Positions 5,346 through 19,221 of a DNA stretch of 64,000 nucleotides are shown here, piece by piece; position 1 is the stretch's first letter; each line of letters starts with the position of its first letter. The notes below the pieces were generated by a model, which did not search any database, had not been told where the DNA came from, and was given only the letters and a program-made list of their open reading frames with translations. This stretch comes from an uncultured Bacteroidota bacterium (GTDB lineage Bacteria; Bacteroidota; Bacteroidia; Bacteroidales; WCHB1-69), in the NCBI GenBank assembly GCA_902774175.1, contig CACYHG010000025.1, forward strand, positions 1,141 through 65,140, read 5' to 3'. A program made the position numbers and the translations under genes.

Positions 5346-5351
5346 CATTCC

Positions 5352-5409
5352 AATCCTATTCAGGAACGTAGATGATTTCGCCGTTCTCCAGCTCGTATGC
5401 GGTGCCGAC
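5352..5409. repeat. Direct repeat copy 1: orphaned 3-prime end of the DUF2149 (hmuV-like) gene, left island boundary (attL-like)
   Basis: 55/58 identical to 19164-19221, with a 44-bp identical core at 5366-5409. On the minus strand it encodes VGTAYELENGEIIYVPE-stop, the same as the end of the ORF at 19168-19494. Confidence 0.85.
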
Positions 5410-5410
5410 A

Positions 5411-8400
5411 CTAACCAATTGCTTTTATCAAATCCAACATTGTTTGAAAGCTTTCAACTTCGTGGTAACGAACATTGGAAGTGGATAGGTTGTTGAACAG
5501 CTTCTTTGCACAGTCAATCTTGGCCTTTTCCACGCCTTTCAACTGCATGGAATCCATTGAACCTTTGGTTTCGGCGATGAAGAAAACATGCTTGATGCCA
5601 ATGTTGTCGTTGAAGGCAATAGCCCAGTCTGGGGCGTAGTTGCCTACGGGTGTCGGGATTTGGAACGACCTCGGCAGTTTGGCATAGACACACACTTCCT
5701 CCGCTTTGTCCAAATCTTCGGCAAAAATGCGCTCGCCTTGGCTATCGGGGAACACATAATCGAGGATGTGCTTTTTGGCTTCATATGCTTTGTCAACGGT
5801 TTGGCGGTTCTTCTCTTTGGTGAAGATGTCGGAATCGTATTGGTTTTCCGTACGATTGTAGCTGATGTGCTCCACAATCATCGTGGCTTTCTGCTCGCGG
5901 ATGATATGACTCACCTTGCGGATGAACTCTTCGGGGTTGTTCTTGAACATGTACAACTTCGACCGCTGAATGCCTTTCAGAATGCGGGTAACTGTACGGC
6001 GTGTCAGCGTGGCGGCTTTGGCTATATCGCCCACCAAGTCGTATGGCACATTGCTGGTTGACACATCACGCATCTCTTTTGTCCGTGTGCTCTGTTCGCC
6101 AGTGAAGTCCAGATTGTCATCGCCTTGGATACCTGTTGTGACCACATACTTCAGCTGCGTGACATTCAACTCGCTGTTGATGGCGGCAATAGCTTTCTGT
6201 ATCAGCTCCTCGCTGTCGTAATGCACCGTATAGACATAGCGGTGGTTGATTTCGTTCCACAATGCCTTGAATTCCATCTTCTCTGCATTGTCGTTCAAAC
6301 GCTCGTTCACCACTTCTGCCTTACCGTTGGCATCTTCCACCATATCCTCCAAAGCGGATGGATCAAAGATGCTCTGAATCAGTTTGTGCACTTGCTCTTC
6401 AATGGGTTGTAATTTCTTACTCATCGGAGCCAAAGTACCCTTTTCCATATCGGTGTGATAGCCTTGCAGGACATTGCCCTTCTCATCAATATAGTCGTTT
6501 TCATACAGGTAGGTGACGATGCTGGCGGCCTCCTGCTCTGAAATTGTGTGCTTCTCCTCACCCACTTTGACGGTAACCCCTTTGAAGTAGTCGACCGTGG
6601 CTTGTGTCGGACGTTCGCGCAAAGTCTCCTTAGTCTCTTTTTGCAAGGCATCAACAAAGGAGCTGTAGTTTTCGTTGGCGATGACGGTCAGCTTGTTAGT
6701 GTCGTGTACGGCATCGCCCAAGCGTTCTTTGTCCATACGGTTGCCGTCATTATCGACGCTGATGCGCAGACCACGACCCACCTCCTGACGTTTGGCCGTG
6801 CTTGAGTTGGCATGGCGCAAGGTACAGATTTGAAACACGTTTGGATTGTCCCAGCCTTCGCGTAAGGCGGAATGGGAAAAGATGAAACGTGTCGGCTCAT
6901 CGAAACTCAGCAGGCGTTCCTTGTTTTTCAAAATCAGGTCGTAAGCCGAGATGTCGTCGGAAGTGTCCTTGCCGCGTTTTACCTCACTATCAATTGAATG
7001 GCCTTTCTTGTCGATGGAGAAATAGCCGTTGTGCACCTGTGCAGCAGAAAAACGGCGCAGGTATTTCTGATAATCGTCCTCAAACAGAGTAAGGTTCTCG
7101 TTCAGATAGCGCATGTATTCCTCCTCAAACATCTTCCACAGCGGGCCTTGCACCTCGTTTCCATCCGTGTCATAGCTCTTGTAGTTGGCCACCTCATCGA
7201 TAAAGAACAGCGAAAGTGTCTTGATGCCTTGCTGGAACAATGCTCTCTCCTTCTCAAAATGCGACTTGATGGTTTCCCGAATCTGTATGAGTTGGATGGC
7301 TTTTTCACTAACATCGCCAACCACCTCTCCCTGACGCAGTTGCTTGCCGTTTTGGAAATAGACCGTATTAGTCAAAGGGTTGATTTCAGTAATAACAAAA
7401 TCCTTGTATGCAGGGAGTTGCGAAACGGAAAACAGTGAATCGCTTTGTTCAAATTTGCAGAGTTGGCGGCGAGTGGCGGCAGCACCTTTCACCTCAATTT
7501 CGAGTTTGACCACAGGGGCATGGTTCTTGGAAAGGATTACGCTGTCGAAATAGATGTAGCTCTGCGTGCCCAAAAGGTTCTGCACAGTGATGCCCTTCAC
7601 CTGGATTTTCTTCACCAAACGTTGCTTGTATGCATCATAAGCATCAAGCGCATAGATGCAGTTGTGAGAGGTCTTGTGCGTGGCGGAATAGTTCAGCACA
7701 AACAACGGCTTGAAGTTTTTCAAAGCTCTTTGCGTGGCTTCTCCCTCCATCTTCTGCGGCTCGTCCATAATGATAATGGGACGGTTGGCGGCAATCACGT
7801 CGATGGGGCGGCGGCTTTGGAAATCGTCGCGTTTGGAATAGATGATACGCGCTTCCTTGTTAGCCGCGCCTTCCTTGAACGAGGTGTTGAACGCCTGAAC
7901 GTTGATAATCATTACGTTGATGCTGGCATCGCTGCTGAACGAGTCGATTTGGGTAAGGTTGGCACTGTTGTAGATGAAATAGCGGGCTTTCTTGCCATAG
8001 AGTTCCATAAAATGCTCCTCTAACATGGTAAAGCTCTTATAGACTCCTTCGCGAATGGCGATGCTGGGCACAACAACGATGAACTTCGACCAGCCAAAGC
8101 GCTTGTTCATCTCAAACATAGTCTTGATATAGACGTAGGTCTTGCCCGTTCCCGTCTCCATCTCCACATCCAAAGAACAGGCACCTAGGCCGTTTGTAGC
8201 TGCTAAAGACTTGCTCAGTGGGATGTCGTTCTGAACCTGCTGATGGTTGATGTTCTCCAACAACTGACTGGCATTGAGTTCCACATCGGCATTGCGATAG
8301 CCCACAAATTCCTCCTCAAACTCAATCCTCATCTGCGGTTTTTGCTTTCCCAAGTCGCGACGGTACTGCGCGTTGGTCTTCGAGGGTTGACCCACAAACA

Positions 8401-8461
8401 CGTTCACCGTGCTTTCTACCGCATCGGTCTGGTATTGCTGTATCTTAAATTTAAATTTCAT
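5411..8461 (-). CDS. res: Type III restriction enzyme, Res subunit (SF2 helicase-nuclease)
   Basis: Walker A-like METGTGKTYVY. DEAH-variant IIMDEPQKM. Helicase motif VI SALREGWDNPNVFQICTL. C-terminal PD-(D/E)xK-like YAPDW...FIAETKG. 1016 aa, co-oriented with a Mod gene. Confidence 0.85.
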   Translation of the reverse strand: MKFKFKIQQYQTDAVESTVNVFVGQPSKTNAQYRRDLGKQKPQMRIEFEEEFVGYRNADVELNASQLLENINHQQVQNDIPLSKSLAATNGLGACSLDVEMETGTGKTYVYIKTMFEMNKRFGWSKFIVVVPSIAIREGVYKSFTMLEEHFMELYGKKARYFIYNSANLTQIDSFSSDASINVMIINVQAFNTSFKEGAANKEARIIYSKRDDFQSRRPIDVIAANRPIIIMDEPQKMEGEATQRALKNFKPLFVLNYSATHKTSHNCIYALDAYDAYKQRLVKKIQVKGITVQNLLGTQSYIYFDSVILSKNHAPVVKLEIEVKGAAATRRQLCKFEQSDSLFSVSQLPAYKDFVITEINPLTNTVYFQNGKQLRQGEVVGDVSEKAIQLIQIRETIKSHFEKERALFQQGIKTLSLFFIDEVANYKSYDTDGNEVQGPLWKMFEEEYMRYLNENLTLFEDDYQKYLRRFSAAQVHNGYFSIDKKGHSIDSEVKRGKDTSDDISAYDLILKNKERLLSFDEPTRFIFSHSALREGWDNPNVFQICTLRHANSSTAKRQEVGRGLRISVDNDGNRMDKERLGDAVHDTNKLTVIANENYSSFVDALQKETKETLRERPTQATVDYFKGVTVKVGEEKHTISEQEAASIVTYLYENDYIDEKGNVLQGYHTDMEKGTLAPMSKKLQPIEEQVHKLIQSIFDPSALEDMVEDANGKAEVVNERLNDNAEKMEFKALWNEINHRYVYTVHYDSEELIQKAIAAINSELNVTQLKYVVTTGIQGDDNLDFTGEQSTRTKEMRDVSTSNVPYDLVGDIAKAATLTRRTVTRILKGIQRSKLYMFKNNPEEFIRKVSHIIREQKATMIVEHISYNRTENQYDSDIFTKEKNRQTVDKAYEAKKHILDYVFPDSQGERIFAEDLDKAEEVCVYAKLPRSFQIPTPVGNYAPDWAIAFNDNIGIKHVFFIAETKGSMDSMQLKGVEKAKIDCAKKLFNNLSTSNVRYHEVESFQTMLDLIKAIG

Positions 8462-10019
8462 AAGACTTCATCAATTCTTTGCCCTTAACTGTCAAAGTGT
8501 ACTTCTGTTTTGAACTATTGGGATTATCCGTGATAGTAGGCTCAATAAAGCCGGCATCCAAAAGATGCCGCATGACATTGTTCTTAAATCTTCCACGATT
8601 AGTATCCCCTGTCAATTGCATCAGTGACCTTAATGATTGCGGTTCTTTTGTCAATCCTGCCATGACTTTGATGACACTTGCATAATATTCTCTCTCTAAC
8701 TTGTGACAGACTTGTGACAAGACTTGTGACAGACTTGTGACAGCTTGGGACAAACTGGGGACAGAACTTAGGACAGCTTGGGACAAATCCGTGTTTACGA
8801 CATCCTTTACGACAATCTTTATGACACTATTTGCAACATCTGTGACATTCACTCTGAATGCCGTTATGAGGTCTACAACAAACTCGGCAGGCGGGTTTCC
8901 GTTTTCCTTCAGGTCGGTTTGCACCTGGCCGACACCTCTGTTGAACATATTCACATAGCCCATCGTTTTCATGGCACTGGCTATAAGCGGATTGCGATAG
9001 TCATTGATTGTCGGAAAGTTTTCCGGCCGTGCGTTGCCATACAAGCCGCCGGCATTCGTAATTTCAAGGCGATGGGCAAACTCGTAGATTCGCAACGGCA
9101 TGTTGCTTTGCAAGTCGCGGTGCATACAGCCGTTCATTACCAGCTCGCGGATGGCCGTATAGGGGAAGTTGCTGACCATTTCCTCGCGCAACATGGAAAC
9201 AAACACTGGTTTCTTCTTGATGACGGACAGTTCCAGCAGCGACTCCAAGCGTGGCAGCAGTTCACAGTAATTGCCTTCCAGCTGAATCTCATTTTCCACT
9301 TCGCTGCTCACATCCTCACCTTTGAAACGCACATATTGCACATACAGGCCTGGCATAAAATGCCGTGGACGCTTCCCGAACAACACCATAGCGGCATTGG
9401 TGGGACAGTTGTTCTCAATGTCGTACATGCCAACGGCTGACAACTGGTCCTCAACGGGGCGTTTGTCCGCCGACAACAACTCCTTTCCGAACAGTTTCTC
9501 CAAAAATTTGCTATGCACAAGTTCGGTATCAATATCTGTAAGCTTGGCGGCGAGACAAGGCATCGTGTCAAATGTGGCCATGTAGGATGTGCGCTTTTCG
9601 GCCAACAGACGTTCCTCTGCTTCTGTGGCAATGTCACGACGTGGGCCGATGCGGATGAATGTGCGGCCACGATAGCGCACGGGCGGCAACATGGAGGGTG
9701 TCACCTCCGCCACCAGCACTTCGCCTTCGGGGAACACAAACCGATCCACGCTCATCACGGGAACAGGCAGTATGTTGCCGTCTGAACGGATAGCCGCTAT
9801 CTTCTTCAGCAAAGCATCCGTAACCTTTAATCCCGATAAGGTGCCGTTGTCGTATGCTCCTAATATCAGATAGCCGTTCTTCCTTGAGTTGGGCAGATCG
9901 TTTGAAAACGCACAGATGGCCTCCTGAAACTTATCCATGTCATTTGTTGACGTAGTGCGTTCCACCCTATAAGTCTCAGTGCTATGCAGCAGTTCCTGTA
10001 TTTCTTCTTTCGTTATCAT
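8451..10019 (-). CDS. AlbA_2/Schlafen-like divergent-AAA + HATPase_c_4-like + C-terminal wHTH protein (often mis-annotated as RecG-like helicase or transcriptional regulator)
   Basis: N-terminus ETYRVERTTS...NGYLILGAYDNG matches the AlbA_2 pattern. Central ELVMNGCMHRD...LEITNAGGLYG is HATPase_c_4-like. It also has LSQ/xQV short repeats and a C-terminal tail (FKNNVMRHLLDAGFIEPT...QKYTLTVKG). Its 3-prime end overlaps the res ATG by 11 nt. Confidence 0.7.
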   Translation of the reverse strand: MITKEEIQELLHSTETYRVERTTSTNDMDKFQEAICAFSNDLPNSRKNGYLILGAYDNGTLSGLKVTDALLKKIAAIRSDGNILPVPVMSVDRFVFPEGEVLVAEVTPSMLPPVRYRGRTFIRIGPRRDIATEAEERLLAEKRTSYMATFDTMPCLAAKLTDIDTELVHSKFLEKLFGKELLSADKRPVEDQLSAVGMYDIENNCPTNAAMVLFGKRPRHFMPGLYVQYVRFKGEDVSSEVENEIQLEGNYCELLPRLESLLELSVIKKKPVFVSMLREEMVSNFPYTAIRELVMNGCMHRDLQSNMPLRIYEFAHRLEITNAGGLYGNARPENFPTINDYRNPLIASAMKTMGYVNMFNRGVGQVQTDLKENGNPPAEFVVDLITAFRVNVTDVANSVIKIVVKDVVNTDLSQAVLSSVPSLSQAVTSLSQVLSQVCHKLEREYYASVIKVMAGLTKEPQSLRSLMQLTGDTNRGRFKNNVMRHLLDAGFIEPTITDNPNSSKQKYTLTVKGKELMKSYEI

Positions 10020-10038
10020 CTATTTCTAATTATAACTG

Positions 10039-10046: not shown

Positions 10047-10066
10047 GTTCATTTTGTCTAATCAAA

Positions 10067-10119
10067 GTGCTTTCCACCGCATCGGTCTGGTATTGCTGTA
10101 TTTTGAATTTGAATTTCAT
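10067..10119 (-). pseudogene. Relic of a res 5-prime end (first ~17 codons, MKFKFKIQQYQTDAVES)
   Basis: 49/53 identical to the true res start at 8409-8461, and all 4 mismatches are synonymous third positions. The relic ATG at 10119 lies 2 nt after the stop of the PHP-ATPase gene. The frame closes after 26 codons. Confidence 0.85.
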
Positions 10120-10121
10120 TG

Positions 10122-13121
10122 CTATTGGATATATTTATCATCTCTTTTCCTAAATGCAGGCATTGCTCCCTCTAACACATCTACAATATGCTTATTTGTA
10201 TTTGGATTCTCTATACTGCCAGATTCAACATACACTTTATTACCATCTTTTTTATCTATGCAAACATAGATTATCTGTTCTGCATCTGCCACGACAGCCA
10301 AATTGGGGTTATGTGTGACCATAATTATCTGTCTTTTTTTCTTGGCTTCCTTTATAAAATCAACAAGAATATTGGCCACGCTATCATTGTCCAAGTTGTC
10401 TTCTGGTTGGTCCAAAATAAGTGGAATGTTATCCATATCCAGCAACAAATAAAAGACTAAAAGTAACGCTCCTTTTTCCCCTGGTGATAAAACAGAAAGA
10501 TCTTTATCACCCTGAAGAATTGAATAATTATTGGTCAAATAATCTAGTGAAAACAAGTAGTCGTATAACGATTGCCTATCCTCGACTTGATCTTTAACAT
10601 AAAATGGTCTTTCGTCATCCGTCTTTAGTTTGTTTATAAAAGAATTGCAAAACGCTTCAATTCCATCTTCGTTTTGAATATCACTTTCTTTTATCAATTC
10701 CTGTACCATTGTTAGACCTGTATCTTTTCCTCTAAAGGATCCACTTTTCGACTGATTTACAAATCTTAAAAACTCATCTGGAAAAGTATTCCTTATGCCT
10801 AAAGATGCACCTATTTTTATTTCATAATCCTTCAACAGCGATTTGTTTTCTTCTATTTTAGAGTCCAATTTGCTTTTAACTTGTTGATAAATGGAAATTA
10901 TCTCTTTACGTTTATTATAGATTTCCTTTAAGCATAGATTTCTTTCTTCCGCCTTCTTCTGTAAATCCTCAGATAAAGAATTTTCAACGTATTCCTTCTC
11001 TTTTTTCAACCATTTTAGAGTGTTAGGAGTTGCTTCGTCACCCTCAATTCTTCTTTTGTTTTTTTCGTACTCCTCTTTTTGTTGTAAAAATGATTGATAT
11101 ACCTTACTTGGTCCATCTAGTTTTGCTTGAAGTGAGATTATTTCGTCTTGTTTTTTCTTAATAGCAAAAACCAAATTATCTTCATTTTGTGAATCAGCAA
11201 CAATCAATTTCTCAATTTCACGCAACCTGCCTTCAAACTCCAATTGCTTTTTTTCCAATAAAGAAGTGTCCTTTTTGCCGCTTATTATAGTATTAATATC
11301 ACCTCCCAAACTCTCAACAAACGACTTGTTTTCCTCTTTAAACTCTCTGATGCTTTGAGCAATTCGATTAACCTTTATAATTAAATCATTGATTTTTGAC
11401 AATTGAATTAATAGACCACTCTTTTCATCTGTAAGCTTTTGAATTGAATCATTTAAAGCGACAATCTCTTCTTTAAGCTTTTCAATTTTTAAAACTGTTT
11501 CTTTACTTTGTTCATCATCAGGACTGGGTTTTGGAACTTCTTGAGGAACAATTAGGGCAGCAATTTCTTTTTCTTTTTGCTCGATTGAGGCATCAATGCT
11601 ATTTTTATAAGATGGGTAGTCTTTATCTTCAAGAGCAATTATATCTTTGTTGATAAGCGACAGTTTGCTCTTGAGCTGTTGAATGTCAAGTTCTAATGCA
11701 TCTGATTTTTTTGCAATGAGTTCTTTGAAATTAGCAGTTCCTAAGCGAGAAGACTCATCTATATATTGGAAAACCACAGCTTCTATTTCATCTTTAAGAT
11801 TTTCTTCTTTTTGTAGGTCATTACAAATAGATTCGAAATAGCCTTGCGGCAAATACTTTATTCGTGTGATTTCACTACCATCAAGTTTGTCCGATAATCC
11901 TTTCTTTTCACTTTGTTTATCTTCATATTTTACAGATGCATAAAAGTTACTAGCAAGATTCTTATTCCTAAATTTATCATCATTTAAAAAAGAAAAATAC
12001 TTTTGGTCTTTATAATTGCAACAATGAGCAAGTATATCTGAAATCGCACTTTTCCCATTACCTTTGTTGCCAATAATAGCGACTAACTCTTTGTTAAATG
12101 GTATCTGTATATTCTCAAACCATTTTCCTTTAATTCCAGAATAGCCATCTACAGCATCAATTAAAAGTTCCTTAATGTATTTTGTTCTATTAGCATCAAC
12201 CGTTTTAAAAATCTTTGGTTTTTCGCCTATAAAGACACGATTTTCTGGCTCGATCAATATTTGTTTCAGGCCTTCAAAAGTAGGATCTGCTTTAATCCAA
12301 GTTATTTTATTATTTGGGAAAATGTTTACCGCATCTAATGAATGAGCATCACTACCAATAACACAAGGTTTTAAACTTCCGTATTTTTGTTTTATCGTCT
12401 CTTCATCATCTACTCCTTCTCCTAAAAAATACTGGATATCTTTGTCATTAGCTGAGAATATAATATCGGACATCCTATATATCTCCTGTCGTGTTGCAGC
12501 TAATGAAGAATGTTGAATTCCGCTATTACCGTCTCTATTACTATTGGAAACTGCCGTGACAACATAATTACGAAGACTTGGCTTTTTTAATACTTCATAT
12601 AGTTCATTATGGCTAATATTGAATTGGGCGATACCTTCTTTTTTTGCACAGCCTTCTTCCAAGTGGTCATTATTTCTAAATAATCTTCCTAGTGCAATTA
12701 AATCTTGTTTTAAACAGGAGTACTCATTTCCTGCATATTTGAATTTTAGACACTGAAAGAATTCTCTATTTATTGTCTCAATTGGCAAGTTTGGATTAAA
12801 AAAAACATGAATATTAATTGGTGTGTCTGTTCTTGTTACAGGCAAGATTCTTAATTCTACATTTGGGATTAGTGTTTTGTTAGATAACCGTCCCTCTTCT
12901 TGTTTTTTCTTCAAAAACAGGTAGTTGTCAATTGAAAAATAATCCGTAATGCCTAATACTGAGATTTCTTCATTAGACTCTAATTTACTAATGTATTTCT
13001 CCCATATATCACCACCACTACCAAACTGGTCGTTTTTTGCTGTATCTGGCGTATGCACATGCAAATCCCATTTACGCCATTCCGAACCTCTTGGATATTT
13101 ATTTGTTGCCATAATTGTCAA
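10122..13121 (-). CDS. PHP-domain phosphoesterase fused to an SMC/ABC-type coiled-coil ATPase (Ppl / TrlF-family-like defence ATPase)
   Basis: PHP motifs WDLHVHTP, GITDY, NVELR, NIHVFF, GSDAH. Walker A GNKGNGKS. A coiled-coil region of roughly 450 aa. Signature-like LSPGEKG and Walker B/D-loop PLILDQPEDNLD. The track start at 13121 is TTG; the first ATG is at 13112. The family name comes from memory of the architecture, not from a search. Confidence 0.75.
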   Translation of the reverse strand: MTIMATNKYPRGSEWRKWDLHVHTPDTAKNDQFGSGGDIWEKYISKLESNEEISVLGITDYFSIDNYLFLKKKQEEGRLSNKTLIPNVELRILPVTRTDTPINIHVFFNPNLPIETINREFFQCLKFKYAGNEYSCLKQDLIALGRLFRNNDHLEEGCAKKEGIAQFNISHNELYEVLKKPSLRNYVVTAVSNSNRDGNSGIQHSSLAATRQEIYRMSDIIFSANDKDIQYFLGEGVDDEETIKQKYGSLKPCVIGSDAHSLDAVNIFPNNKITWIKADPTFEGLKQILIEPENRVFIGEKPKIFKTVDANRTKYIKELLIDAVDGYSGIKGKWFENIQIPFNKELVAIIGNKGNGKSAISDILAHCCNYKDQKYFSFLNDDKFRNKNLASNFYASVKYEDKQSEKKGLSDKLDGSEITRIKYLPQGYFESICNDLQKEENLKDEIEAVVFQYIDESSRLGTANFKELIAKKSDALELDIQQLKSKLSLINKDIIALEDKDYPSYKNSIDASIEQKEKEIAALIVPQEVPKPSPDDEQSKETVLKIEKLKEEIVALNDSIQKLTDEKSGLLIQLSKINDLIIKVNRIAQSIREFKEENKSFVESLGGDINTIISGKKDTSLLEKKQLEFEGRLREIEKLIVADSQNEDNLVFAIKKKQDEIISLQAKLDGPSKVYQSFLQQKEEYEKNKRRIEGDEATPNTLKWLKKEKEYVENSLSEDLQKKAEERNLCLKEIYNKRKEIISIYQQVKSKLDSKIEENKSLLKDYEIKIGASLGIRNTFPDEFLRFVNQSKSGSFRGKDTGLTMVQELIKESDIQNEDGIEAFCNSFINKLKTDDERPFYVKDQVEDRQSLYDYLFSLDYLTNNYSILQGDKDLSVLSPGEKGALLLVFYLLLDMDNIPLILDQPEDNLDNDSVANILVDFIKEAKKKRQIIMVTHNPNLAVVADAEQIIYVCIDKKDGNKVYVESGSIENPNTNKHIVDVLEGAMPAFRKRDDKYIQ

Positions 13122-13124
13122 TGT

Positions 13125-15014
13125 TTAAATGATTCTTCTTATCGTCTCTTTCGAATACTCCTCCCAAATCTGCTCAAAGTTGTCCGCCACATTGTCCGTG
13201 GCGAGGCTGCTGTCGCGGAGGACGAAGTAGTAGGGATGCTGGCGGGCGATTTCGGTGATGGCGGTCTCGTTCACGTCCTTATCGAAGCAGGCCATGAGGT
13301 AGTTATCGGCGACGCTCCAGACGGTCTTGCCCGCGATTTCGCGTTTCTCTATCTTGGCCGATAGCTCGATGCCAAGCTCTATCATGGCTTGGAAGAGCAG
13401 GTCCTCGTCGGTGCGGTCGTGCTTGATGTTGTCCTCGAAGAGCAGGTTCTCGTTGAACTGCTCGGGAGAGTAATAGACATCCTGCATGTTGGAGCTGTCG
13501 AGTTTCAGCACGCGGAAACCGATGTCCAAGGGCTTTTTCTCGCCGCTGAACAAATCGGTTTGTTTGGCTTTCTGCTCTTCAACGATTTTCTTTCCCGCGC
13601 GGCGGATGCGTTCCTTGCCGATTTCGCAGATAGTAGAAAATCCTTGGTCTTTCTTTTTCTCGCTGACTTGTTCGGGAAGCTGAACAAGAATAAACTTCAA
13701 ACCTGTTCCTTTTTCGGCATTCCGTTTCATCACGGCATGTGCTGTGGTTGCACTCCCAGAAAAGAAATCAAGGACAATAGAATCATCATACAGGTTTGCA
13801 AGTGTTAGCAACCTTTCCAATAATCGAACTGGTTTCGGCCCATCAAAAACTCCTTTGTCACCAAACAATGACACAACTTCTTGCGCTCCTTCCTGACTAT
13901 GGCCAACTTCTTTGAACAACAAAATAGATGTCGGTGCCATTCCTTCGAATTTCAATTCTGTTAAGAAACGCTTTATTCTGGGTGTGCCATCCCCATTTGG
14001 ACCGAACCAAATTCGGTTGTCCTGGAGTCTCTCTAAAAACGAGTTTTTAGAGAGACTCCAGCAGCGCCCTGCTGGAGGCTCTACTATTTTTCCAGATGGA
14101 GTTGTTATAGGATAATCGCACTCCGCATTGTATGTTTTAACGGAAATATCACTAGACATCCATACTCCACGAGGATCATTGTCTGGATTAGAATACCGAG
14201 CGTTAGCTTCTTCCGTCCTATCAAGTCTTCCAATCACGAACTTGTCTATGTTCTTAACGAACATCATAATATAATCATGACTGTTAGAAATAAATCTCGC
14301 ATCATTTTTCGGAGAAAAAGCGCGTTGCCAAATCAATTCCGCGATAAAGTTCCGCGCACCAAACACCTCGTCACAGACTTTTTTCAGGTTCTCTTGTTCA
14401 TTATCATCAATCGAAATAAAAATCACCCCATCCTCACTCAGCAAGTCCTTGGCCACTTTCAGGCGCGGATAAATCATATTGAGCCAGTCGGTGTGGAAGC
14501 GGCCGTTGCTTTCGGTGTTGGCCACGAGGCGGTTGCCCTCCTCGTCCTCCTGCCCGCTGTTGTGGACATAGTCGCCGGCGGTCTGGGCAAAGTCGTCGTT
14601 ATACACGAAGTCGTTGCCTGTGTTGTAGGGCGGGTCAATGTAAATCATCTTCACCTTGCCGAGGTAGTTCTCGCGCAGCAGCTTCAGCACTTCGAGGTTG
14701 TCGCCCTCGATGTAGAGGTTCTGCGTGTTATCGAAGTCCACGCTTTCCTCGCGGCAGGGGCGCAGCGTGTCGGTGGTCGGCGCGTTGGCATGGCGGATGG
14801 CGTTGCGCTTGTCGGGCCAGGTGAACTGGTAGCGTTCCTCGGGGCCTTCCACGATGTCCTTCGAGAGCTCCTGCCGCAGCTGGTCGAAGTCGATGGCCAT
14901 TTCCGGCTTCCCGTTCTCGTCGAGCCGCTCGGTGAGGCAGTTGGGGAAGAGTTCGGCTATGCGCTTTATGTTTTCGTCCACGATGTTGTGGGTTTGCATG
15001 CGAAGTTTTTCCAT
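13125..15014 (-). CDS. mod: Type III restriction-modification DNA methyltransferase, Mod subunit (beta-class N6A/N4C)
   Basis: Motif IV IYIDPPYNTGN precedes motif I DFFSGSATTAHA, which is the beta-class order with the TRD between them. 629 aa, in the same operon as res. Confidence 0.85.
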   Translation of the reverse strand: MEKLRMQTHNIVDENIKRIAELFPNCLTERLDENGKPEMAIDFDQLRQELSKDIVEGPEERYQFTWPDKRNAIRHANAPTTDTLRPCREESVDFDNTQNLYIEGDNLEVLKLLRENYLGKVKMIYIDPPYNTGNDFVYNDDFAQTAGDYVHNSGQEDEEGNRLVANTESNGRFHTDWLNMIYPRLKVAKDLLSEDGVIFISIDDNEQENLKKVCDEVFGARNFIAELIWQRAFSPKNDARFISNSHDYIMMFVKNIDKFVIGRLDRTEEANARYSNPDNDPRGVWMSSDISVKTYNAECDYPITTPSGKIVEPPAGRCWSLSKNSFLERLQDNRIWFGPNGDGTPRIKRFLTELKFEGMAPTSILLFKEVGHSQEGAQEVVSLFGDKGVFDGPKPVRLLERLLTLANLYDDSIVLDFFSGSATTAHAVMKRNAEKGTGLKFILVQLPEQVSEKKKDQGFSTICEIGKERIRRAGKKIVEEQKAKQTDLFSGEKKPLDIGFRVLKLDSSNMQDVYYSPEQFNENLLFEDNIKHDRTDEDLLFQAMIELGIELSAKIEKREIAGKTVWSVADNYLMACFDKDVNETAITEIARQHPYYFVLRDSSLATDNVADNFEQIWEEYSKETIRRII

Positions 15015-15074
15015 ATTATTTTGCTTTTTATTTACTAATAGCGTAGAATGAATACATACCCATTCTAACTACAA

Positions 15075-15683
15075 TCATTTTTTCTTTTGTTGATTTTGAA
15101 TTTGAATCAGCTTTTCCGTATTGTTCTTGATTTCTAAAGCATTCTTTTCTATCGCATTTGAGTTTTTTTCAATGGAAGGCTTGATATTTTCATCAATTGT
15201 CGTTTGTATTTTTATTATTTCCTTCTGGTTATTATTAGATTTCTGATAAGGCAACACAAAGTATCCAACAATAGCAATTATTGTTGCTATCACGATACCA
15301 ATTATCCACCTTTTATTCTCTTTTTTTTCTTTGTTTTGTTGTTCAATATCTGTTTTAACCTTTTCAATCTTCCCTTCCAATTCTTTCCTCAAACTATCAT
15401 GTGCAGCATCATTTTTTTCAGACAAAGAACTAATTTTATCTTCTAAGCGAAAATATGTATCCCCTATTTGATTAGTAACAGCATTATACTCTGTTTCTTG
15501 GGAACAACTGCTATCTACAGGAGGATAATACCTATTTTTATGTTCCTCATCCGCCCTTGTTTGATAATGATTTGAACTACGGAATCGATTAAGCTTAGAG
15601 AAACTGTGTTTCAAATCATAATCCTCTTGATTTGGAATAATCGGAGGATGTTTTAATGGCTGTTTTTTCTTTTTTCCTCCCAT
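15075..15683 (-). CDS. Hypothetical single-pass membrane protein with flanking coiled coils
   Basis: 202 aa. It has a Lys-rich N-terminus, a coiled coil (LRKELEGKIEKVKTDIEQQNKEKK), a TM helix (WIIGIVIATIIAIVGYFVLPY) and a C-terminal coiled coil. It starts 2 nt after the upstream gene stop and is strongly AT-rich. Confidence 0.6.
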   Translation of the reverse strand: MGGKKKKQPLKHPPIIPNQEDYDLKHSFSKLNRFRSSNHYQTRADEEHKNRYYPPVDSSCSQETEYNAVTNQIGDTYFRLEDKISSLSEKNDAAHDSLRKELEGKIEKVKTDIEQQNKEKKENKRWIIGIVIATIIAIVGYFVLPYQKSNNNQKEIIKIQTTIDENIKPSIEKNSNAIEKNALEIKNNTEKLIQIQNQQKKK

Positions 15684-15685
15684 AA

Positions 15686-16393
15686 TTACAAATCTTTTAG
15701 ATTCTCAAACAATTGCTTTTCAACAGATAATGATAAGATATAGGTGTCTTTGATTAGTGACTTATCGTTAATTGGTTCCTTCTCATTTGTCAAATAATTA
15801 TCTGTATCTATTGCTACTCCAACATGCTTAATTCGATATGGTTCAGCAAAGTTCTGCGCTGTAAATGCATCTTTATCGTATTTAACCGGCCCCACGCTAT
15901 ACATTCCATTCTTATAATTTAATTGAAATAGCAAATCTGTCGCTGGAAAATCCTGAAGATAAAACTGACTTGGGAATCCCTTTTTCATCTTATCAAGGAT
16001 AGTATCAAACTCTGTTGATTTCGTTTTATAAGTTCCTTGGATTCGACATCCAATTCGACGAATGTTGAAACTACACAATTCACGCTCAACACAATCGTAG
16101 ATTTTTAAAAAATTACTGTAAAAACAATCTACTGAATCAATTTTACTACTTATATAACACAACCTGTTTAGTTCTATCATCACAATATCTCTTGCATTCT
16201 CCTTATTTTCTCCATCCCAAATTATAGCATTAGCGACCCCTATTTCCCAATGAAGCGGTACAAAAATTTTTGACGCTTTAATGTTTTCAATAATTGCGCC
16301 TTTTTTGTCAGAGAGTGTCACTTTATGGTCAAATCGCAATTCTATAATAAACTTTCGATTACAAATACTTTTAGAGTCAATATTGTCTTTCAT
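15686..16393 (-). CDS. Hypothetical protein (weak, memory-based resemblance to the TIGR04255 family)
   Basis: 235 aa, no TM segment or signal peptide. FIIELRFD and IRRIGCRIQGTY are reminiscent of the conserved TIGR04255 blocks. AT-rich and tightly coupled to the downstream TM protein. Confidence 0.55.
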   Translation of the reverse strand: MKDNIDSKSICNRKFIIELRFDHKVTLSDKKGAIIENIKASKIFVPLHWEIGVANAIIWDGENKENARDIVMIELNRLCYISSKIDSVDCFYSNFLKIYDCVERELCSFNIRRIGCRIQGTYKTKSTEFDTILDKMKKGFPSQFYLQDFPATDLLFQLNYKNGMYSVGPVKYDKDAFTAQNFAEPYRIKHVGVAIDTDNYLTNEKEPINDKSLIKDTYILSLSVEKQLFENLKDL

Positions 16394-16456
16394 ATAAAAA
16401 TTATTAATTGTTTCTACTATTTTGTTTTAAATTTTACTATAAAAAATGTTTCAGCA

Positions 16457-16507
16457 TTATTTTATATTGACTACAATATTTTGGGGTTGCATGTAAAGTT
16501 TTTCCAT
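16457..16507 (-). pseudogene. Relic of a mod 5-prime end (MEKLYMQPQNIV...)
   Basis: 16471-16507 matches the true mod start at 14978-15014 at 30/37 positions, and 4 of the 7 mismatches fall on codon third positions (the others change the encoded residue). The relic ATG at 16507 lies 4 nt after the RloB stop. The frame closes after 16 codons. Confidence 0.7.
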
Positions 16508-16511
16508 ATAA

Positions 16512-17102
16512 CTATTCATTCAAATTATTATTCAACACATCAATTACCTTATTCACATTAGTATAGGATTCACCATCACCTCCAAAAGCCTCTGCCCTTG
16601 CACAGGCTTCCTCCTGTCGGCCTTCATCCACCATTTCATCCACCCATTTCTCCTGCTGCAAAAATTTCTCAGTCTTATCGTATTGAGGAATGAACTCCTT
16701 TAAGTCCTCAATCAAGGCATGTGACGTGCCAAAGTAGCGGTTTGTGTTCTTATAATGTAACAAAAACCAGTATTCTATCGAAGGCAATGAGTCGCAAAGC
16801 ATCACAGAAGGATGATCCTTGTACTTACGTCGCAAAACATTCAACTTTCTGCGCTCCGATTCATTCCATGTTGACACATCGGCATCAAACACACAAATGG
16901 CAAAGCCATCATTCCGAAGCACTTCCTCAATCCTTTTCGCCATGCCATTGGCCGTTTCCGTTCCAAAAAAGCGCGGACGTATCTTTACACGGTAATCCTT
17001 TAGCGATTTCAAATGCTTGAAATACCACTGCTCAGTAATGCCCGCTCCAATAACAGTCGGAATTGGCACTCTACCTTTTCGAATGGATACCTTTCTTGCC
17101 AT
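16512..17102 (-). CDS. RloB-like (Toprim-like) protein
   Basis: 196 aa. GITEQWYF corresponds to the TE..YF block, and the acidic VFDADVS block fits the RloB family. It starts 5 nt after the ATPase stop. Confidence 0.6.
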   Translation of the reverse strand: MARKVSIRKGRVPIPTVIGAGITEQWYFKHLKSLKDYRVKIRPRFFGTETANGMAKRIEEVLRNDGFAICVFDADVSTWNESERRKLNVLRRKYKDHPSVMLCDSLPSIEYWFLLHYKNTNRYFGTSHALIEDLKEFIPQYDKTEKFLQQEKWVDEMVDEGRQEEACARAEAFGGDGESYTNVNKVIDVLNNNLNE

Positions 17103-17107
17103 AAATC

Positions 17108-18400
17108 CTACTTTTTGATGTTAGGCAAAGCACCAAAAACACCGTTCCTATATGCTTTCTGGAGCGATGATATTCTATACAATCTCTTGTATTCCACCAG
17201 TGAATATAGGTCGGTGTTTCCTGTTTCATCTTTTTCAGTGAACCAAACAGAATCTTTACGGATAAGATCATCTCCAACGGTGTTTAACAAAGGATCGTAA
17301 TGGGTTGTGACCAACAACTGGGCCCTGTTGCGTTGCGACAAAAACTGCTCAATAACAAATTCAACCAAATCAGGATGCAGGGAGGCTTCAATTTCGTCAA
17401 TAAAAAGAAAAGCATTCTTACTGACCGCCTCAAAAATCGCCGCTTCAATACCTATAGTACGTTTCGTTCCATACGACTGGTATTCATCAGGCATAAGATA
17501 GCTTTCATCTCCACGGCTATTATGAACCCTATGGACAAAAGAAGCCTTCACTTGATTAAAAGATTTCTCTTTTTTTAACATCTCTTTTATCTCAGCAGGA
17601 GCATCTTCGTCTTGCAACATCATATTAAGCACCCTTTGAGGTATAGGTTGCTTTACCATATCAGTTTTGACATCGGATATATTGAAATCGGCCTTCTGGA
17701 CAAAATCAAGCAAATACTCCTTGAGAATTTTATTCTCAAGCATTTTTTCACTTGCATATTCAAACATTCTCGTTTGCGGCTGCACCATTGGCAAAATACC
17801 ATTGCGTAACCACTCCCTGGCTGCATCAATCTCCTTCATAGCAACATTCACCTGCTTGCGCGCGGCAAAAAAAGACATATTGGGAAGGCATCTCAATGAA
17901 AGCTCGTCTTTCGCAGCCTGACTGATTTTGACAACAACGGGATTAAAGCTCAATACAGACTCACCGCCATCCCATGTGCGCTCAAACAACTTTGTGGGTT
18001 GGACAGTAGAATAGTAGTATAATCTCTCCAAATGCACCTTTTGCCGATCAAGTTTCAACTCATACCAATACTTGGTTTTACCAACATAAAATTTCAGGCT
18101 GAATTCTGTTGGCTCATTCGGTGTCAACGTGTCTAGCAGGAAAGGTTCCGAACCGGTTTCCTCTTCGATGTCATCCGGTTTATTGAACACAAACTCATGA
18201 AGAAACGTCAAAGCCAAAAGTAAATTTGACTTGCCCGAAGCATTTGCACCATACACCATGGCAAAACGGAGCAACCGAACACCAGGTACCACTTCAACAA
18301 CATAATTTTCCTCAAATGTCTTGTCCTTTGTCGCTTCAAAACTGAGTGTCACCTCTTCTCTGAACGACATAAAGTTTTTAATTTTAAACTCTTGTATCAT
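17108..18400 (-). CDS. ABC-type AAA ATPase (AAA_21-like), partner of the RloB-like protein
   Basis: N-terminus FKIKNFMSF. Walker A GANASGKSN. Walker B/D-loop FLFIDEIEASLHPD. H-loop LLVTTHY. 430 aa. Confidence 0.75.
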   Translation of the reverse strand: MIQEFKIKNFMSFREEVTLSFEATKDKTFEENYVVEVVPGVRLLRFAMVYGANASGKSNLLLALTFLHEFVFNKPDDIEEETGSEPFLLDTLTPNEPTEFSLKFYVGKTKYWYELKLDRQKVHLERLYYYSTVQPTKLFERTWDGGESVLSFNPVVVKISQAAKDELSLRCLPNMSFFAARKQVNVAMKEIDAAREWLRNGILPMVQPQTRMFEYASEKMLENKILKEYLLDFVQKADFNISDVKTDMVKQPIPQRVLNMMLQDEDAPAEIKEMLKKEKSFNQVKASFVHRVHNSRGDESYLMPDEYQSYGTKRTIGIEAAIFEAVSKNAFLFIDEIEASLHPDLVEFVIEQFLSQRNRAQLLVTTHYDPLLNTVGDDLIRKDSVWFTEKDETGNTDLYSLVEYKRLYRISSLQKAYRNGVFGALPNIKK

Positions 18401-18437
18401 TGCAATGTATTCGATTTACCCATATTGTTTTAAAGTG

Positions 18438-18445
18438 CAAAAGTA
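18438..18445 (-). promoter_or_regulatory. Bacteroidetes -7 promoter box (TACTTTTG on minus strand) heading the island operon
   Basis: Plus-strand CAAAAGTA, 38 nt upstream of the ATPase ATG at 18400. Confidence 0.5.
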
Positions 18446-18453
18446 CAAAAAAT

Positions 18454-18481
18454 ATAACAAATATGTATACAAATTTGTTAT
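18454..18481. promoter_or_regulatory. Near-perfect 28-bp palindrome overlapping the expected -33 region of the island promoter (operator-like)
   Basis: ATAACAAATATGTATACAAATTTGTTAT has 26/28 self-complementary positions and starts 9 nt upstream of the -7 box. Confidence 0.4.
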
Positions 18482-18719
18482 TTTTTTCTATTTTATTTTA
18501 AAAATTCCGTAAATTATGCCATTATGTCATATAAACTGCCAAAAAAAACATTTTTTTCATTAAAAAAAGACATAATTTTGAATTGGAACATTTTTTGTCA
18601 TAAATAATTTCAACAGGAGACTTCAGCACCTGTATAAAGCAATCGGGCAGCTCATCCCGTCAGAATTGAGCGGCCGAGGCGGTCCGGTCTTATGACCGCA
18701 TAATTTATTCACCAAATCA

Positions 18720-18917
18720 ATGCGTATGGGAAAAAACATACATGTTGTCAAAAGAGGCGATCATTGGTCAGCTGTTCAAGAAAAAGCCAAACGCAGTTCT
18801 GGCAATTTCCGAACTCAAGCGGAGGCTGTGGAGCGTGCAAAAGAGATAGCCAAGAATAACGGACAAGAAGTCTGTATTCATGGTGTCGATGGCAGAATTC
18901 GCGAAAAGAACAGCTAA
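18720..18917 (+). CDS. DUF2188 domain-containing small protein
   Basis: 65 aa. NIHVVKRGDHWSAVQEKAKRSSGNFRTQAEAVERAKEIAKNNGQEVCIHGVDGRIRE fits the DUF2188 pattern (W..k.eg..r....f.tk.eA...a..iA......el.iH..dG.I). Confidence 0.7.
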   Translation: MRMGKNIHVVKRGDHWSAVQEKAKRSSGNFRTQAEAVERAKEIAKNNGQEVCIHGVDGRIREKNS

Positions 18918-18960
18918 GGCAACGATTCTTATCCTCCAGAAGGATAAATGAACTGCCTCC

Positions 18961-18993
18961 AAGTAGGTGTCGCTAATGTGGCACCTACTTTTT
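18961..18993 (+). terminator. Rho-independent terminator after the DUF2188 gene
   Basis: 9-bp stem AAGTAGGTG / CACCTACTT with a 12-nt loop, running into TTTTT. Confidence 0.6.
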
Positions 18994-19117
18994 ACTTCAA
19001 TAGCTTTGCGCGTTCCTCATCGATGGCCATTTGCCCAATGAGGGTGTTGCCCTCCTCAACCTCGATGTCGCCAATGGAGCGCACCCAATTGTCCCAAATC
19101 GCATCAAAAGGATGGTC
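18992..19117 (-). pseudogene. Orphan C-terminal gene fragment (41 codons, no start)
   Basis: The minus-strand frame DHPFDAIWDNWVRSIGDIEVEEGNTLIGQMAIDEERAKLLK-stop is bounded upstream by an in-frame TAA. It has protein-like composition and is GC-richer than its AT-rich neighbours. Family not recognised. Confidence 0.3.
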
Positions 19118-19163
19118 TTAATCAAGACATTGTTATCGGACGTGAAATTCCTTTGTAAAGGAA

Positions 19164-19221
19164 AATCCTACTCCGGCACGTAGATGATTTCGCCGTTCTC
19201 CAGCTCGTATGCGGTGCCGAC
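19164..19221. repeat. Direct repeat copy 2: functional 3-prime end of the DUF2149 gene, right island boundary (attR-like)
   Basis: 55/58 identical to 5352-5409, with the identical core at 19178-19221. Confidence 0.85.

What the first reader, a model, noticed from the sequence alone, without database searches (positions are those of the whole stretch)
5352..19221. 13.75-kb defence island inserted into the 3-prime end of the last hmu-operon gene, bounded by 58-bp direct repeats, with no recombinase
5352-5409 and 19164-19221 are direct repeats, 55/58 identical. They share a perfectly identical 44-bp core (ACGTAGATGATTTCGCCGTTCTCCAGCTCGTATGCGGTGCCGAC) at 5366-5409 and 19178-19221. On the minus strand both copies encode VGTAYELENGEIIYVPE-stop. 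The three mismatches are synonymous third-position changes in the last three codons. Copy 2 is the working end of the 108-aa DUF2149 gene. Copy 1 is an orphaned gene end lying 6 nt from the palindromic terminator shared with ccsBA and 1 nt from the res stop codon. So the 13,754 bp between them was inserted and carried its own replacement gene end. It also carries a 7-bp inverted repeat (TTCCTTT-GT-AAAGGAA, 19148-19163) that could substitute for the displaced terminator. The mismatches are confined to the 14 bp farthest from the gene body, which places the crossover inside the identical core, as in att-site recombination. However, I recognise no integrase, transposase, tRNA or transfer gene in the island. 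Nearly all of its recognisable cargo is defence-type.
Basis: partly seen in the sequence, partly recalled or inferred. Interest (0 to 1): 0.7.

Follow-up and report, generated by a model that had tools for sequence, protein, structure and literature searches.

The report
Defence island with duplicated gene end
In some strains of an uncultured gut or rumen Bacteroidales species, a 13.75-kb block of anti-phage defence genes sits in the tail of a haem-uptake gene; it most likely arrived by ordinary recombination rather than through a mobile-element enzyme, so it is a clean but fairly ordinary example of defence-island exchange.

Summary
5352-5409 and 19164-19221 are 55/58 identical with a 44-bp exact core. 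They occur nowhere else in the window and flank 13,754 bp of low-GC DNA. The insertion reading is also correct. Four related contigs (L010, L090, L004, L003) have an empty site where one DUF2149 gene end abuts the ccsBA hairpin. Other contigs carry a different 5.3-kb Type IIG restriction-modification (R-M) island at the same spot. The cargo is defence genes: a Type III R-M system, AbiL, a DUF2188/PDC-S16 gene and two ATPases. No recombinase or tRNA occurs in the island or in the whole 64-kb window.

The att-site reading is not supported. The second island shares only 43-47 bp at the left junction and has no DUF2149-end copy. The island starts inside a truncated DUF4391 gene. It is a 5'-truncated copy of a widespread, recombinase-free Bacteroidales locus (SNF2-DUF4391-AbiL-mod-res). 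A 1.66-kb AlbA_2 cassette nested inside it has the same footprint, a 53-58-bp orphan res start.

The best explanation is homologous exchange on the hmu side plus an illegitimate join on the ccsBA side, as in homology-facilitated illegitimate recombination (HFIR), at a strain-variable defence hotspot. It is a new member of a known kind, of moderate interest.

The parts
5319..5346 (.). 12-bp-stem palindromic hairpin shared by the convergent ccsBA and (originally) hmu operons; marks the right edge of the insertion site
   Evidence: Read. DNA fold -12.8 kcal/mol, z -6.95. Conserved next to the DUF2149 end in the empty-site contigs.
5352..5409 (-). Copy 1: orphaned last 17 codons, stop codon and 4 nt of DUF2149, of the resident (empty-site) type
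   Evidence: Its codons GTT CCT GAA TAG GATT and the following GGAATG match the empty alleles L090, L004 and L010.
5411..8461 (-). Type III restriction subunit Res (1016 aa)
   Evidence: Pfam ResIII and RE_endonuc. PADLOC REase_III E 1.6e-292. More than 100 homologues at 94-96% aa identity in Bacteroidales.
8451..10019 (-). AlbA_2/Schlafen, HATPase_c_4 and wHTH protein (522 aa). This is a nested 1,658-bp cassette inserted into the 5' end of res.
   Evidence: Pfam. L196 has the AAA gene and res contiguous without this gene.
10062..10119 (-). Orphan res start (53-58 nt from the ATG), displaced by the AlbA_2 cassette
   Evidence: Identical over 50/50 nt to the L175 res start and 53/53 nt to the L192 res start.
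10122..13121 (-). 999-aa AAA_21/SMC-type ATPase (Ppl-like C-terminus), GC about 32%, occupying the slot between mod and res
   Evidence: Homologous to the 906-aa gene in L196 (77.7% DNA identity).
13125..15014 (-). Type III methyltransferase Mod (629 aa)
   Evidence: Pfam N6_N4_Mtase. PADLOC MTase_III E 5e-235.
15075..16393 (-). Two genes of unknown function (202 aa and 235 aa), GC about 31%, in the variable slot between AbiLii and mod
   Evidence: No confident Pfam or PADLOC hit. The same slot holds a TIR gene in L175 and a 119-aa gene in L186.
16473..16530 (-). Degenerate orphan mod-like start (about 40-55 nt from the ATG, 74% over the 58-nt repeat; similarity clearest over the first ~40 nt), overlapping the AbiLii stop codon
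16512..18400 (-). AbiL pair: AbiLii/RloB (16512-17102) and AbiLi AAA_21 ATPase (17108-18400)
   Evidence: Pfam RloB and AAA_21. PADLOC AbiLii E 3.5e-16 and AbiLi E 5.8e-80.
18720..18917 (+). DUF2188 small protein (PADLOC candidate PDC-S16), followed by a hairpin with a T-run at 18961-18990
18995..19117 (-). Truncated DUF4391 gene fragment (41 codons, no start codon). It marks the broken left end of the imported locus.
   Evidence: tblastn against DUF4391 of L175-L179. BLASTP 45% identity, E 3e-9, aligned to residues 130-167 of 200. Pfam DUF4391 for the L175 protein.
19117..19163 (-). 43-47-bp segment just after the DUF2149 stop codon (contains the inverted repeat at 19148-19163), shared with the unrelated island B
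   Evidence: Unique in the window. Absent from other-species loci (the loci fetched later gave a match only in contigs of the same island). A 36-bp core of it is absent from viral contigs.
19164..19221 (-). Copy 2: the working 3' end of DUF2149, of the island-linked type
19168..19494 (-). DUF2149 gene (108 aa), last gene of the hmu-type operon
   Evidence: Pfam DUF2149 E 1.3e-34. MotA/ExbB, a 195-aa ORF of unknown function, CobN, a TonB-dependent receptor and HmuY lie upstream.

Best explanation
Positions 5410-19163 are a strain-variable defence island. It occupies a hotspot between the convergent hmu-type and nrf/ccsBA operons of an uncultured Bacteroidales species (UBA1195 lineage). It is not an autonomous or att-bounded mobile element.

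It is a 5'-truncated copy of a composite defence locus that is widespread in Bacteroidales: SNF2 helicase, DUF4391, AbiLi/AbiLii, a variable slot, Type III mod, a second variable slot, then res. In other species that locus lies between unrelated core genes.

Most likely, DNA from a strain that already carried cargo after DUF2149 recombined into an empty-site strain. One crossover was homologous, in the hmu/DUF2149 side. The other was an illegitimate join between the base after the res stop codon and codon 92 of the resident DUF2149. This is homology-facilitated illegitimate recombination (HFIR), also called terminal displacement. The incoming DNA supplied the working gene end (copy 2 plus the 47-bp segment). 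The resident last 17 codons were pushed 13.8 kb downstream as an orphan (copy 1).

What is shown: the insertion polymorphism, the allele types of the two copies, the truncated left end, the absence of recombinases, and the same footprint at a nested cassette. What is inferred: the order of events and the homologous-plus-illegitimate mechanism.
For: 1. Empty sites L010, L090 and L004 have a single gene end 43 nt from ccsBA; L003 has a shorter variant.
2. The same site holds a different island (a Type IIG R-M system plus two unknown genes) in L001, L002, L007 and L009. It has an identical left junction TAGGATT|TTCCTTT... for 43-47 bp. Its right end is unrelated and finishes in an orphan AraC-type 3' end, with no second DUF2149 end.
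3. Copy 1 is of the empty-site type and copy 2 is of the island-linked type.
4. The island starts with a DUF4391 fragment that has no start codon. Full-length SNF2-DUF4391-AbiL-mod-res loci occur elsewhere between core genes without any integrase. DNA homology to them ends at or just before the res stop codon.
5. The nested AlbA_2 cassette leaves a 53-58-nt orphan res start that is 100% identical to res starts in other loci. L196 provides the uninterrupted AAA-res arrangement. This repeats the footprint at a place where no DUF2149-specific integrase could act.
6. There is no recombinase or tRNA in 64 kb, and no match to plasmids or phages beyond one 123-bp chance-level hit.
7. The 58-mer has no hairpin (z about 0).
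8. HFIR with displaced, orphaned gene ends has precedent in T6SS effector-immunity arrays and Rhs loci (PMC5361080, read).
Against: - A direct repeat that rebuilds the 3' end of a gene is also the classic signature of integrase-mediated insertion, and the sequence alone cannot exclude a lost or trans-acting integrase.
- No donor configuration was found, meaning island A followed by something other than the DUF2149 orphan.
- SNP patterns in the flanks are too mosaic to delimit a donor tract.
- The illegitimate join falls 1 nt after the res stop codon, which is a coincidence unless selection for intact res is invoked.
- At least two events are needed to explain the 47-bp segment shared with island B.
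- Natural competence or another DNA delivery route is unknown for this uncultured organism.
Confidence: 0.55

Rival explanations
1. The island is a decayed integrative element, or a CIME-like cis-mobilizable element. A recombinase-bearing element integrated site-specifically into the DUF2149 3' end, and the two 58-mers are attL and attR. The integrase was later lost, or is supplied in trans by an element elsewhere in the genome.
For: - The direct repeats restore the gene end, and the identical 44-bp core is flanked by allele-specific ends.
- Islands A and B share the same left junction and a 43-47-bp arm, as members of one element family would.
- Empty sites look like precise excision products or unoccupied attB sites.
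- CIMEs, which are att-flanked and lack recombination genes, are a recognised class (PMC5704250, found).
Against: - There is no recombinase in the island or in the 64 kb.
- The right-hand arm is absent, because the res stop codon lies 1 nt from the repeat.
- Island B lacks the right repeat altogether.
- The left end lies inside a truncated gene.
- Parent loci elsewhere have no integrase.
- Of 172 loci with a DUF2149 gene (101 with at least 5 kb downstream), none except this island has a second gene-end copy.
- The core and a 36-bp core of the arm are absent from viral contigs.
- The same footprint occurs at the nested AlbA_2 cassette.
Confidence: 0.2
2. Campbell-type insertion without a recombinase. 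A circular DNA molecule carrying the island and a 58-bp piece of the DUF2149 end, closed by an illegitimate join, integrated through a single RecA-dependent crossover within the 44-bp identical core. The repeats could then mediate precise RecA-dependent loss and re-insertion, acting as a pseudo-att site.
For: - The topology is exactly that of a single crossover between a circle and the chromosome.
- The mismatches lie only distal to the core.
- The nested repeats are of similar length: 53-58 bp at res and about 40-55 bp at mod.
- No recombinase is present.
Against: - It needs an extra step, illegitimate circularisation, compared with linear HFIR.
- A 44-58-bp homology is near the lower limit for efficient RecA recombination (general knowledge, not tested here).
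- Related loci with other cassettes show no flanking repeats, so this is not a general cassette mechanism.
- No circle junction is available to test.
Confidence: 0.15
3. The occupied state with both repeats is ancestral, and the empty sites are secondary deletions between the two repeats.
For: Recombination between the 44-bp cores would yield exactly the empty allele. The short empty allele of L003 (CCGGAGTAGAGACGC) looks like a microhomology (GTAG) deletion of an occupied allele.
Against: - The island is low-GC mosaic DNA (31-52% against 53-60% in the flanks).
- It is a truncated copy of a locus that resides elsewhere in other species.
- Empty alleles occur on several divergent haplotypes, including the species representative.
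- Copy 1 carries empty-type codons and copy 2 carries island-type codons.
Confidence: 0.05

Closest known systems
Core defence hotspots flanked by conserved genes (cDHS of Pseudomonas aeruginosa, PMC10250203; E. coli defence-island hotspots, PMC10121019)
   Same: The site lies between conserved core operons. It is empty in some strains and holds different defence cargo in others. It has no hallmark genes of a mobile element. Exchange through flanking homology has been proposed for such hotspots.
   Different: Here the hotspot is a 43-nt gap between two convergent operons of one Bacteroidales species. One allele also preserves a 58-bp duplicated gene end, which records how the island was installed.
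Homology-facilitated illegitimate recombination (HFIR) and terminal displacement (T6SS effector-immunity arrays in Vibrio cholerae, PMC5361080; Rhs C-terminal displacement, cited there)
   Same: Incoming DNA is anchored by homology on one side and joined illegitimately on the other. The resident gene end is displaced downstream as an orphan.
   Different: The displaced end encodes the same peptide as the new one, so no toxin tip is exchanged. The cargo is a 13.75-kb defence island. The mechanism is inferred from sequence only.
Integrase-borne genomic islands and prophages inserted in the 3' ends of genes, and their recombinase-less derivatives (CIMEs; PMC5704250)
   Same: Direct repeats contain the gene's 3' end, the gene is restored by element-borne sequence, and empty sites exist.
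   Different: There is no recombinase, no conserved right arm and a truncated gene at the left end. A sister island lacks the second repeat, and no cognate integrating element was found.
Restriction-modification operons with embedded 'restriction-linked' (rlo) or Abi genes, as in Type I hsd loci
   Same: Variable defence genes sit between the conserved mod and res genes and next to RloB/AbiL-type genes.
   Different: The scaffold here is a Type III mod-res pair coupled to SNF2-DUF4391 and AbiL, with two variable slots.

Membership tests
att-bounded integrative element (integrase-mediated genomic island) | Direct repeats (attL and attR) flank the element and share a core with the empty attB | tested here: met
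   58-bp repeats with a 44-bp exact core; empty sites carry one copy.
att-bounded integrative element (integrase-mediated genomic island) | A tyrosine or serine recombinase is encoded in the element, usually next to an att site | tested here: not met
   Pfam scans of all island ORFs and of the rest of the 64-kb window found none.
att-bounded integrative element (integrase-mediated genomic island) | Defined, conserved element ends in independent insertions | tested here: not met
   Islands A and B share only 43-47 bp on the left. Their right ends are unrelated, and B has no second repeat. The left end of A lies inside a truncated DUF4391 gene.
att-bounded integrative element (integrase-mediated genomic island) | Excision to a circle and restoration of attB | not testable with these tools
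   This needs read-level data or PCR on a population that carries the island.
CIME (cis-mobilizable element) | Flanked by att sites of a cognate ICE or IME, while lacking recombination and conjugation modules | tested here: inconclusive
   The lack of modules is met. No cognate element carrying the 58-mer was found in the 203 fetched loci, in viral contigs, or in plasmids and phages. The full genome could not be searched.
Core defence hotspot | Conserved flanking core genes with variable content, including empty alleles | tested here: met
   The hmu and ccsBA flanks are conserved. Four empty alleles, island A and island B were found.
Core defence hotspot | Cargo enriched in defence systems and lacking mobile-element hallmark genes | tested here: met
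   Type III R-M, AbiL, PDC-S16 and ATPases in island A. A Type IIG R-M system in island B.
HFIR / terminal displacement product | An illegitimate junction without extended homology on one side, with a displaced orphan copy of the resident gene end | tested here: met
   The junction res-TAG-T|GTCGGC. The orphan is of the empty-site type. There is an analogous orphan res start, and L196 serves as the uninterrupted comparator.
HFIR / terminal displacement product | A homologous anchor crossover on the other side, seen as a donor tract in the flanking gene | tested here: inconclusive
   SNP profiles of the hmu flank are mosaic, with no clean tract boundary.
Integron cassette (attC / '59-base element') | An imperfect palindromic attC hairpin and an IntI integrase | tested here: not met
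   The 58-mer folds no better than shuffled sequence (z -0.02 and -0.26), and there is no integrase.
Type III restriction-modification system | A Mod (N6/N4 methyltransferase) together with a Res (ResIII helicase plus endonuclease domain) | tested here: met
   Pfam and PADLOC. The two genes are separated by two inserted genes.
AbiL | An adjacent pair of AbiLi (AAA_21 ATPase) and AbiLii (RloB-like) | tested here: met
   PADLOC AbiLi E 5.8e-80 and AbiLii E 3.5e-16.

The most novel reading that the evidence does not exclude
The roughly 55-bp duplicated gene termini are not mere scars. There are three in this island: the DUF2149 end, the res start and the mod start. In this reading they act as recombinase-free 'pseudo-att' sites that let whole islands and single defence cassettes loop out and re-insert by RecA-dependent recombination wherever the conserved gene terminus exists. 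That would make the conserved SNF2-DUF4391-AbiL-mod-res scaffold a docking platform for cassette exchange across Bacteroidales.
Probability: 0.1. Interest if true: 0.65.

Novelty: new member of a known kind. Interest (0 to 1): 0.35.

Why it matters
The locus is an unusually legible record of how a defence island without any mobility gene reached a chromosomal hotspot. The empty site, two alternative occupants, the displaced resident gene end, the truncated donor gene and a nested cassette with the same footprint are all available for comparison. It supports the view that defence islands in gut and rumen Bacteroidales turn over by general homologous and illegitimate recombination rather than by dedicated recombinases. 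It also points to a conserved Type III R-M scaffold with variable slots, where the uncharacterised genes in those slots (202 aa, 235 aa, 999 aa) are candidate new defence genes.

Tried and rejected
- **Dispersed repeat:** rejected. The core occurs only twice in the window and once per related locus.
- **Assembly artefact:** rejected. Three contigs carry the exact Res protein with similar neighbouring genes, and independent samples cover the left junction.
- **Integron-like attC:** rejected. There is no hairpin.
- **Phage or plasmid origin:** no matches apart from one 123-bp hit of no significance.
- **tRNA target:** none found.
- **Recombinase elsewhere in the window:** none. The genes scanned in the rest of the window are housekeeping or give no Pfam match.
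- **Donor tract from SNP profiles of the flanks:** uninformative, because the population is highly recombined and the ccsBA side is 94-98% identical between all pairs.
- **Exact-protein look-ups of Res, RloB and AlbA_2:** these returned only the same island at the same site, and AbiLi had no exact record.
- **Orphan gene ends as a universal feature of related mod-res loci or of the MmeI-type module:** not found in L171, L175, L199 or L201.
- **The 47-bp left arm in other species or other loci:** not found.
- **The 7-bp inverted repeat as a replacement terminator:** weak.

Full report
**Observation**

The window was read at both ends of the finding and scanned for repeats. Positions 5352-5409 and 19164-19221 are direct repeats, 55/58 identical, with a 44-bp exact core. 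With up to 3 mismatches allowed, the core occurs only at these two places in 64 kb, against 0 expected in shuffles.

On the minus strand both copies encode VGTAYELENGEIIYVPE-stop, and the three differences are synonymous. Copy 2 ends the 108-aa DUF2149 ORF at 19168-19494 (Pfam E 1e-34). Copy 1 is an orphan. It lies 1 nt from the stop codon of a 1016-aa Type III res gene. It lies 5 nt from a strong 12-bp-stem hairpin at 5319-5346 (-12.8 kcal/mol, z -6.95), which follows the ccsBA-type ORF at 3094-5322. The interval between the copies is 13,754 bp, and its GC content falls to 31-52% against 53-60% in the flanks.

**What the island carries**

All large ORFs are on the minus strand. Pfam and PADLOC give the following, listed in window order from the ccsBA side:
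- Type III Res (5411-8461)
- an AlbA_2/Schlafen, HATPase_c_4 and wHTH protein (8451-10019)
- a 999-aa AAA_21/SMC-type ATPase (10122-13121)
- Type III Mod (13125-15014)
- two unknown genes (15075-16393)
- AbiLii/RloB (16512-17102) and AbiLi (17108-18400)
- a plus-strand DUF2188/PDC-S16 gene (18720-18917)

No ORF matches an integrase, transposase or transfer protein. ARAGORN finds no tRNA in the window. Pfam scans of 30 further ORFs covering 27.8-64 kb gave housekeeping families (HmuY, SbcCD, MetK, RpoD, enolase, RecQ and others) or no match, and no recombinase.

**Is it an insertion?**

An exact-protein look-up of DUF2149 and two collection scans returned the same locus from related strains. 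The species representative is 'Bacteroidales bacterium UBA1195' (L010, 99% aa identity).

In L010, L090 and L004 the DUF2149 stop codon is followed after 43 nt by the ccsBA end. The junction reads ...TACGTTCC(G/T)GAATAGGATTGG(A/G)ATGTAGAGACGC, which is exactly copy 1 and its right flank. L010 aligns to window 21352-19164 and then to 5411-224, with a 60-bp overlap, so it holds one copy of the repeat. L003 has a shorter empty junction, CCGGAGTAGAGACGC.

The hmu|ccsBA adjacency is specific to this species.

**A second occupant**

L001, L002, an NCBI contig and the partial contigs L007 and L009 carry a different 5.26-kb island at the same site. It holds an MmeI-type Type IIG R-M enzyme and two unknown genes. 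Its left junction is identical to that of the window island: TAGGATT|TTCCTTTACAAAGGAATTTCACGTCCGATAACAATGyCkTGAT. After 43-47 bp the two islands diverge.

Its right end has no DUF2149-end copy. It finishes in an orphan AraC-type 3' fragment (...FFKKHTGMTPMEYRNGIRM*) that abuts GAATGTAGAGACGC. L090 (empty) is the nearest neighbour of L001 and L002 on both flanks, so gain or loss there is recent.

Among 172 fetched loci with a full DUF2149 gene (101 with at least 5 kb downstream), only this island has a second partial copy.

**Where the island came from**

Res has more than 100 homologues at 94-96% aa identity in Bacteroidales MAGs. Their contexts reveal a conserved composite locus: SNF2 helicase, DUF4391, AbiLi, RloB, a variable slot, mod, a second variable slot, then res.
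- The first slot holds a TIR gene, a 119-aa gene or a 215-aa plus a 119-aa gene in different loci.
- The second slot holds an AAA_15 gene with a 247-aa gene, a 650-aa gene, a Fic gene, a 906-aa AAA gene, or Abi_C with AlbA_2 and a 391-aa gene.
- The locus lies between unrelated core genes, for example UDG and Ham1 on one side and AlaRS or ClpB on the other.
- No recombinase is present in these loci either.

DNA homology between the window island and these loci (88-91% in mod and res, about 76% in AbiL) ends at or just before the res stop codon.

In the window, the 123 nt that follow the shared 47-bp segment encode 41 codons with no start codon. They align to residues 130-167 of DUF4391 (45% identity, E 3e-9). 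Island A is therefore a fragment of such a locus, broken inside DUF4391 on the left and 1 nt after res on the right.

**The same footprint inside the island**

Two further repeat pairs are duplicated gene starts.
- The sequence at 10062-10119 is a 53-58-nt copy of the res start. It lies between the AAA gene and the AlbA_2 gene. It is 50/50 identical to the res start of L175 and 53/53 identical to that of L192.
- L196 has the homologous AAA gene and res contiguous. A three-way alignment shows that the window has a 1,658-bp insertion (the AlbA_2 gene plus a new res start), which displaced the resident res start.
- A weaker orphan mod-like start at 16473-16530 precedes the low-GC 235-aa and 202-aa genes.

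Such orphans are absent from L171, L175, L199 and L201. They are occasional scars, not an obligatory feature.

**Mechanism**

The data fit import by general recombination. A homologous crossover occurred in the hmu/DUF2149 side, and an illegitimate join linked the base after the res stop codon to codon 92 of the resident DUF2149. The product has a working gene end of the donor (island-linked) type and a displaced orphan of the recipient (empty-site) type. That is what the allele comparison shows.

This is the HFIR or terminal-displacement model that has been proposed for T6SS effector-immunity arrays and Rhs loci, where orphaned 3' regions accumulate (PMC5361080). It also fits the idea that core defence hotspots are exchanged through flanking homology (PMC10250203).

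The att-site alternative keeps some weight, because a repeat that rebuilds a gene end is its classic signature. CIMEs, which are att-flanked elements without recombinases, are also known (PMC5704250). That alternative would, however, have to accommodate all of the following:
- a missing integrase
- a missing right arm
- a sister island without attR
- a left end inside a truncated gene
- an unrelated explanation for the identical footprint at the AlbA_2 cassette

A Campbell-type single crossover of an illegitimately closed circle within the 44-bp core is a third variant, also recombinase-free.

The position of the three mismatches does not discriminate between these models. They fall at third-codon positions that are polymorphic among strains. 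The 58-mer has no hairpin, so it is not attC-like. The core and a 36-bp core of the arm are absent from viral contigs, and the island is absent from plasmid and phage collections.

**Limits**

No donor allele was found, meaning island A with a different right junction. The flank SNP profiles are too mosaic to delimit a donor tract. The rest of the genome of this uncultured species could not be searched for a trans-acting recombinase. All mechanistic steps are inferred from sequence comparison.

**Verdict**

The repeat, the insertion, the empty site, the defence cargo and the absence of a recombinase are all real. The att-recombination inference is not supported. The locus is a strain-variable defence hotspot occupied by a truncated copy of a widespread Type III R-M/AbiL composite locus. 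It was most likely installed by homologous plus illegitimate recombination. It is a new member of a known kind, of moderate interest (0.35).

Noticed in passing
window 21352 (inside the cobN/hmuS-like ORF 21258-24629): The window lacks about 442 bp that L010, L001-L005 and L090 all have. The CobN ORF matches only positions 2-862 of the 1090-position Pfam profile, and a separate ORF (20744-21541) covers the rest. The haem-uptake operon next to the island therefore looks broken in this strain. L007 and L009 have a 4.66-kb deletion that joins window positions 24391 and 19731.
   Followed up: partly
window 8404-8461 / 10062-10119 and 14980-15037 / 16473-16530: Nested duplications of the res start (53-58 nt, 90% identical) and the mod start (about 40-55 nt, 74% over the 58-nt repeat). 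They flank a 1.66-kb AlbA_2 cassette and a 1.49-kb low-GC two-gene cassette. L196 shows the uninterrupted AAA-res arrangement.
   Followed up: yes
L171, L175-L180, L186-L198 (related loci): A conserved composite locus in many Bacteroidales MAGs: SNF2 helicase, DUF4391, AbiLi, RloB, a variable slot, Type III mod, a second variable slot, then res. The two slots hold unrelated genes (TIR, Fic, Abi_C, AlbA_2, AAA ATPases, unknowns). In L192 and L196-L198 it follows the core genes UDG and Ham1. No recombinase is present. The uncharacterised genes in the slots are candidate defence genes.
   Followed up: partly
L199/L200 and L201/L202: The MmeI-type Type IIG enzyme and its 230-aa partner (the core of island B) also occur as a cassette between the mod and res genes of another Type III system (L199). 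They also occur alone between core genes (L201). In neither case are there flanking repeats.
   Followed up: partly
L003 4370-4390: A short empty-site allele, CCGGAGTAGAGACGC. It has the island-linked GAG codon and lacks 13-14 nt of the usual spacer. This fits a microhomology (GTAG) deletion of an occupied allele rather than a never-occupied site.
   Followed up: no
L001 8040-8128 / L002 7772-7860: An orphan AraC-family 3' end of about 69 bp (...PLSFFKKHTGMTPMEYRNGIRM*) forms the right end of island B, directly against the ccsBA hairpin. Its source gene was not found in any fetched locus.
   Followed up: partly
window 8698-8787: An imperfect 11/33-bp tandem repeat (about 8 units of 11 bp, 82-84% matches) inside the AlbA_2 gene. 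It encodes a low-complexity linker (SQAVLSSVPSLSQAVTSLSQVLSQV) between the ATPase-like domain and the wHTH domain.
   Followed up: no
L171 1102-1210, 2648-2748, 4737-4837: Three intergenic arrays of an 8-bp unit (TCCATAAC-like) lie upstream of successive genes of a defence locus. They are unexplained.
   Followed up: no
window 18961-18990: A 13-bp-stem hairpin with a T-run lies between the DUF2188 gene and the DUF4391 fragment. It is a better candidate than the 7-bp inverted repeat at 19148-19163 for stopping read-through from the hmu operon.
   Followed up: no
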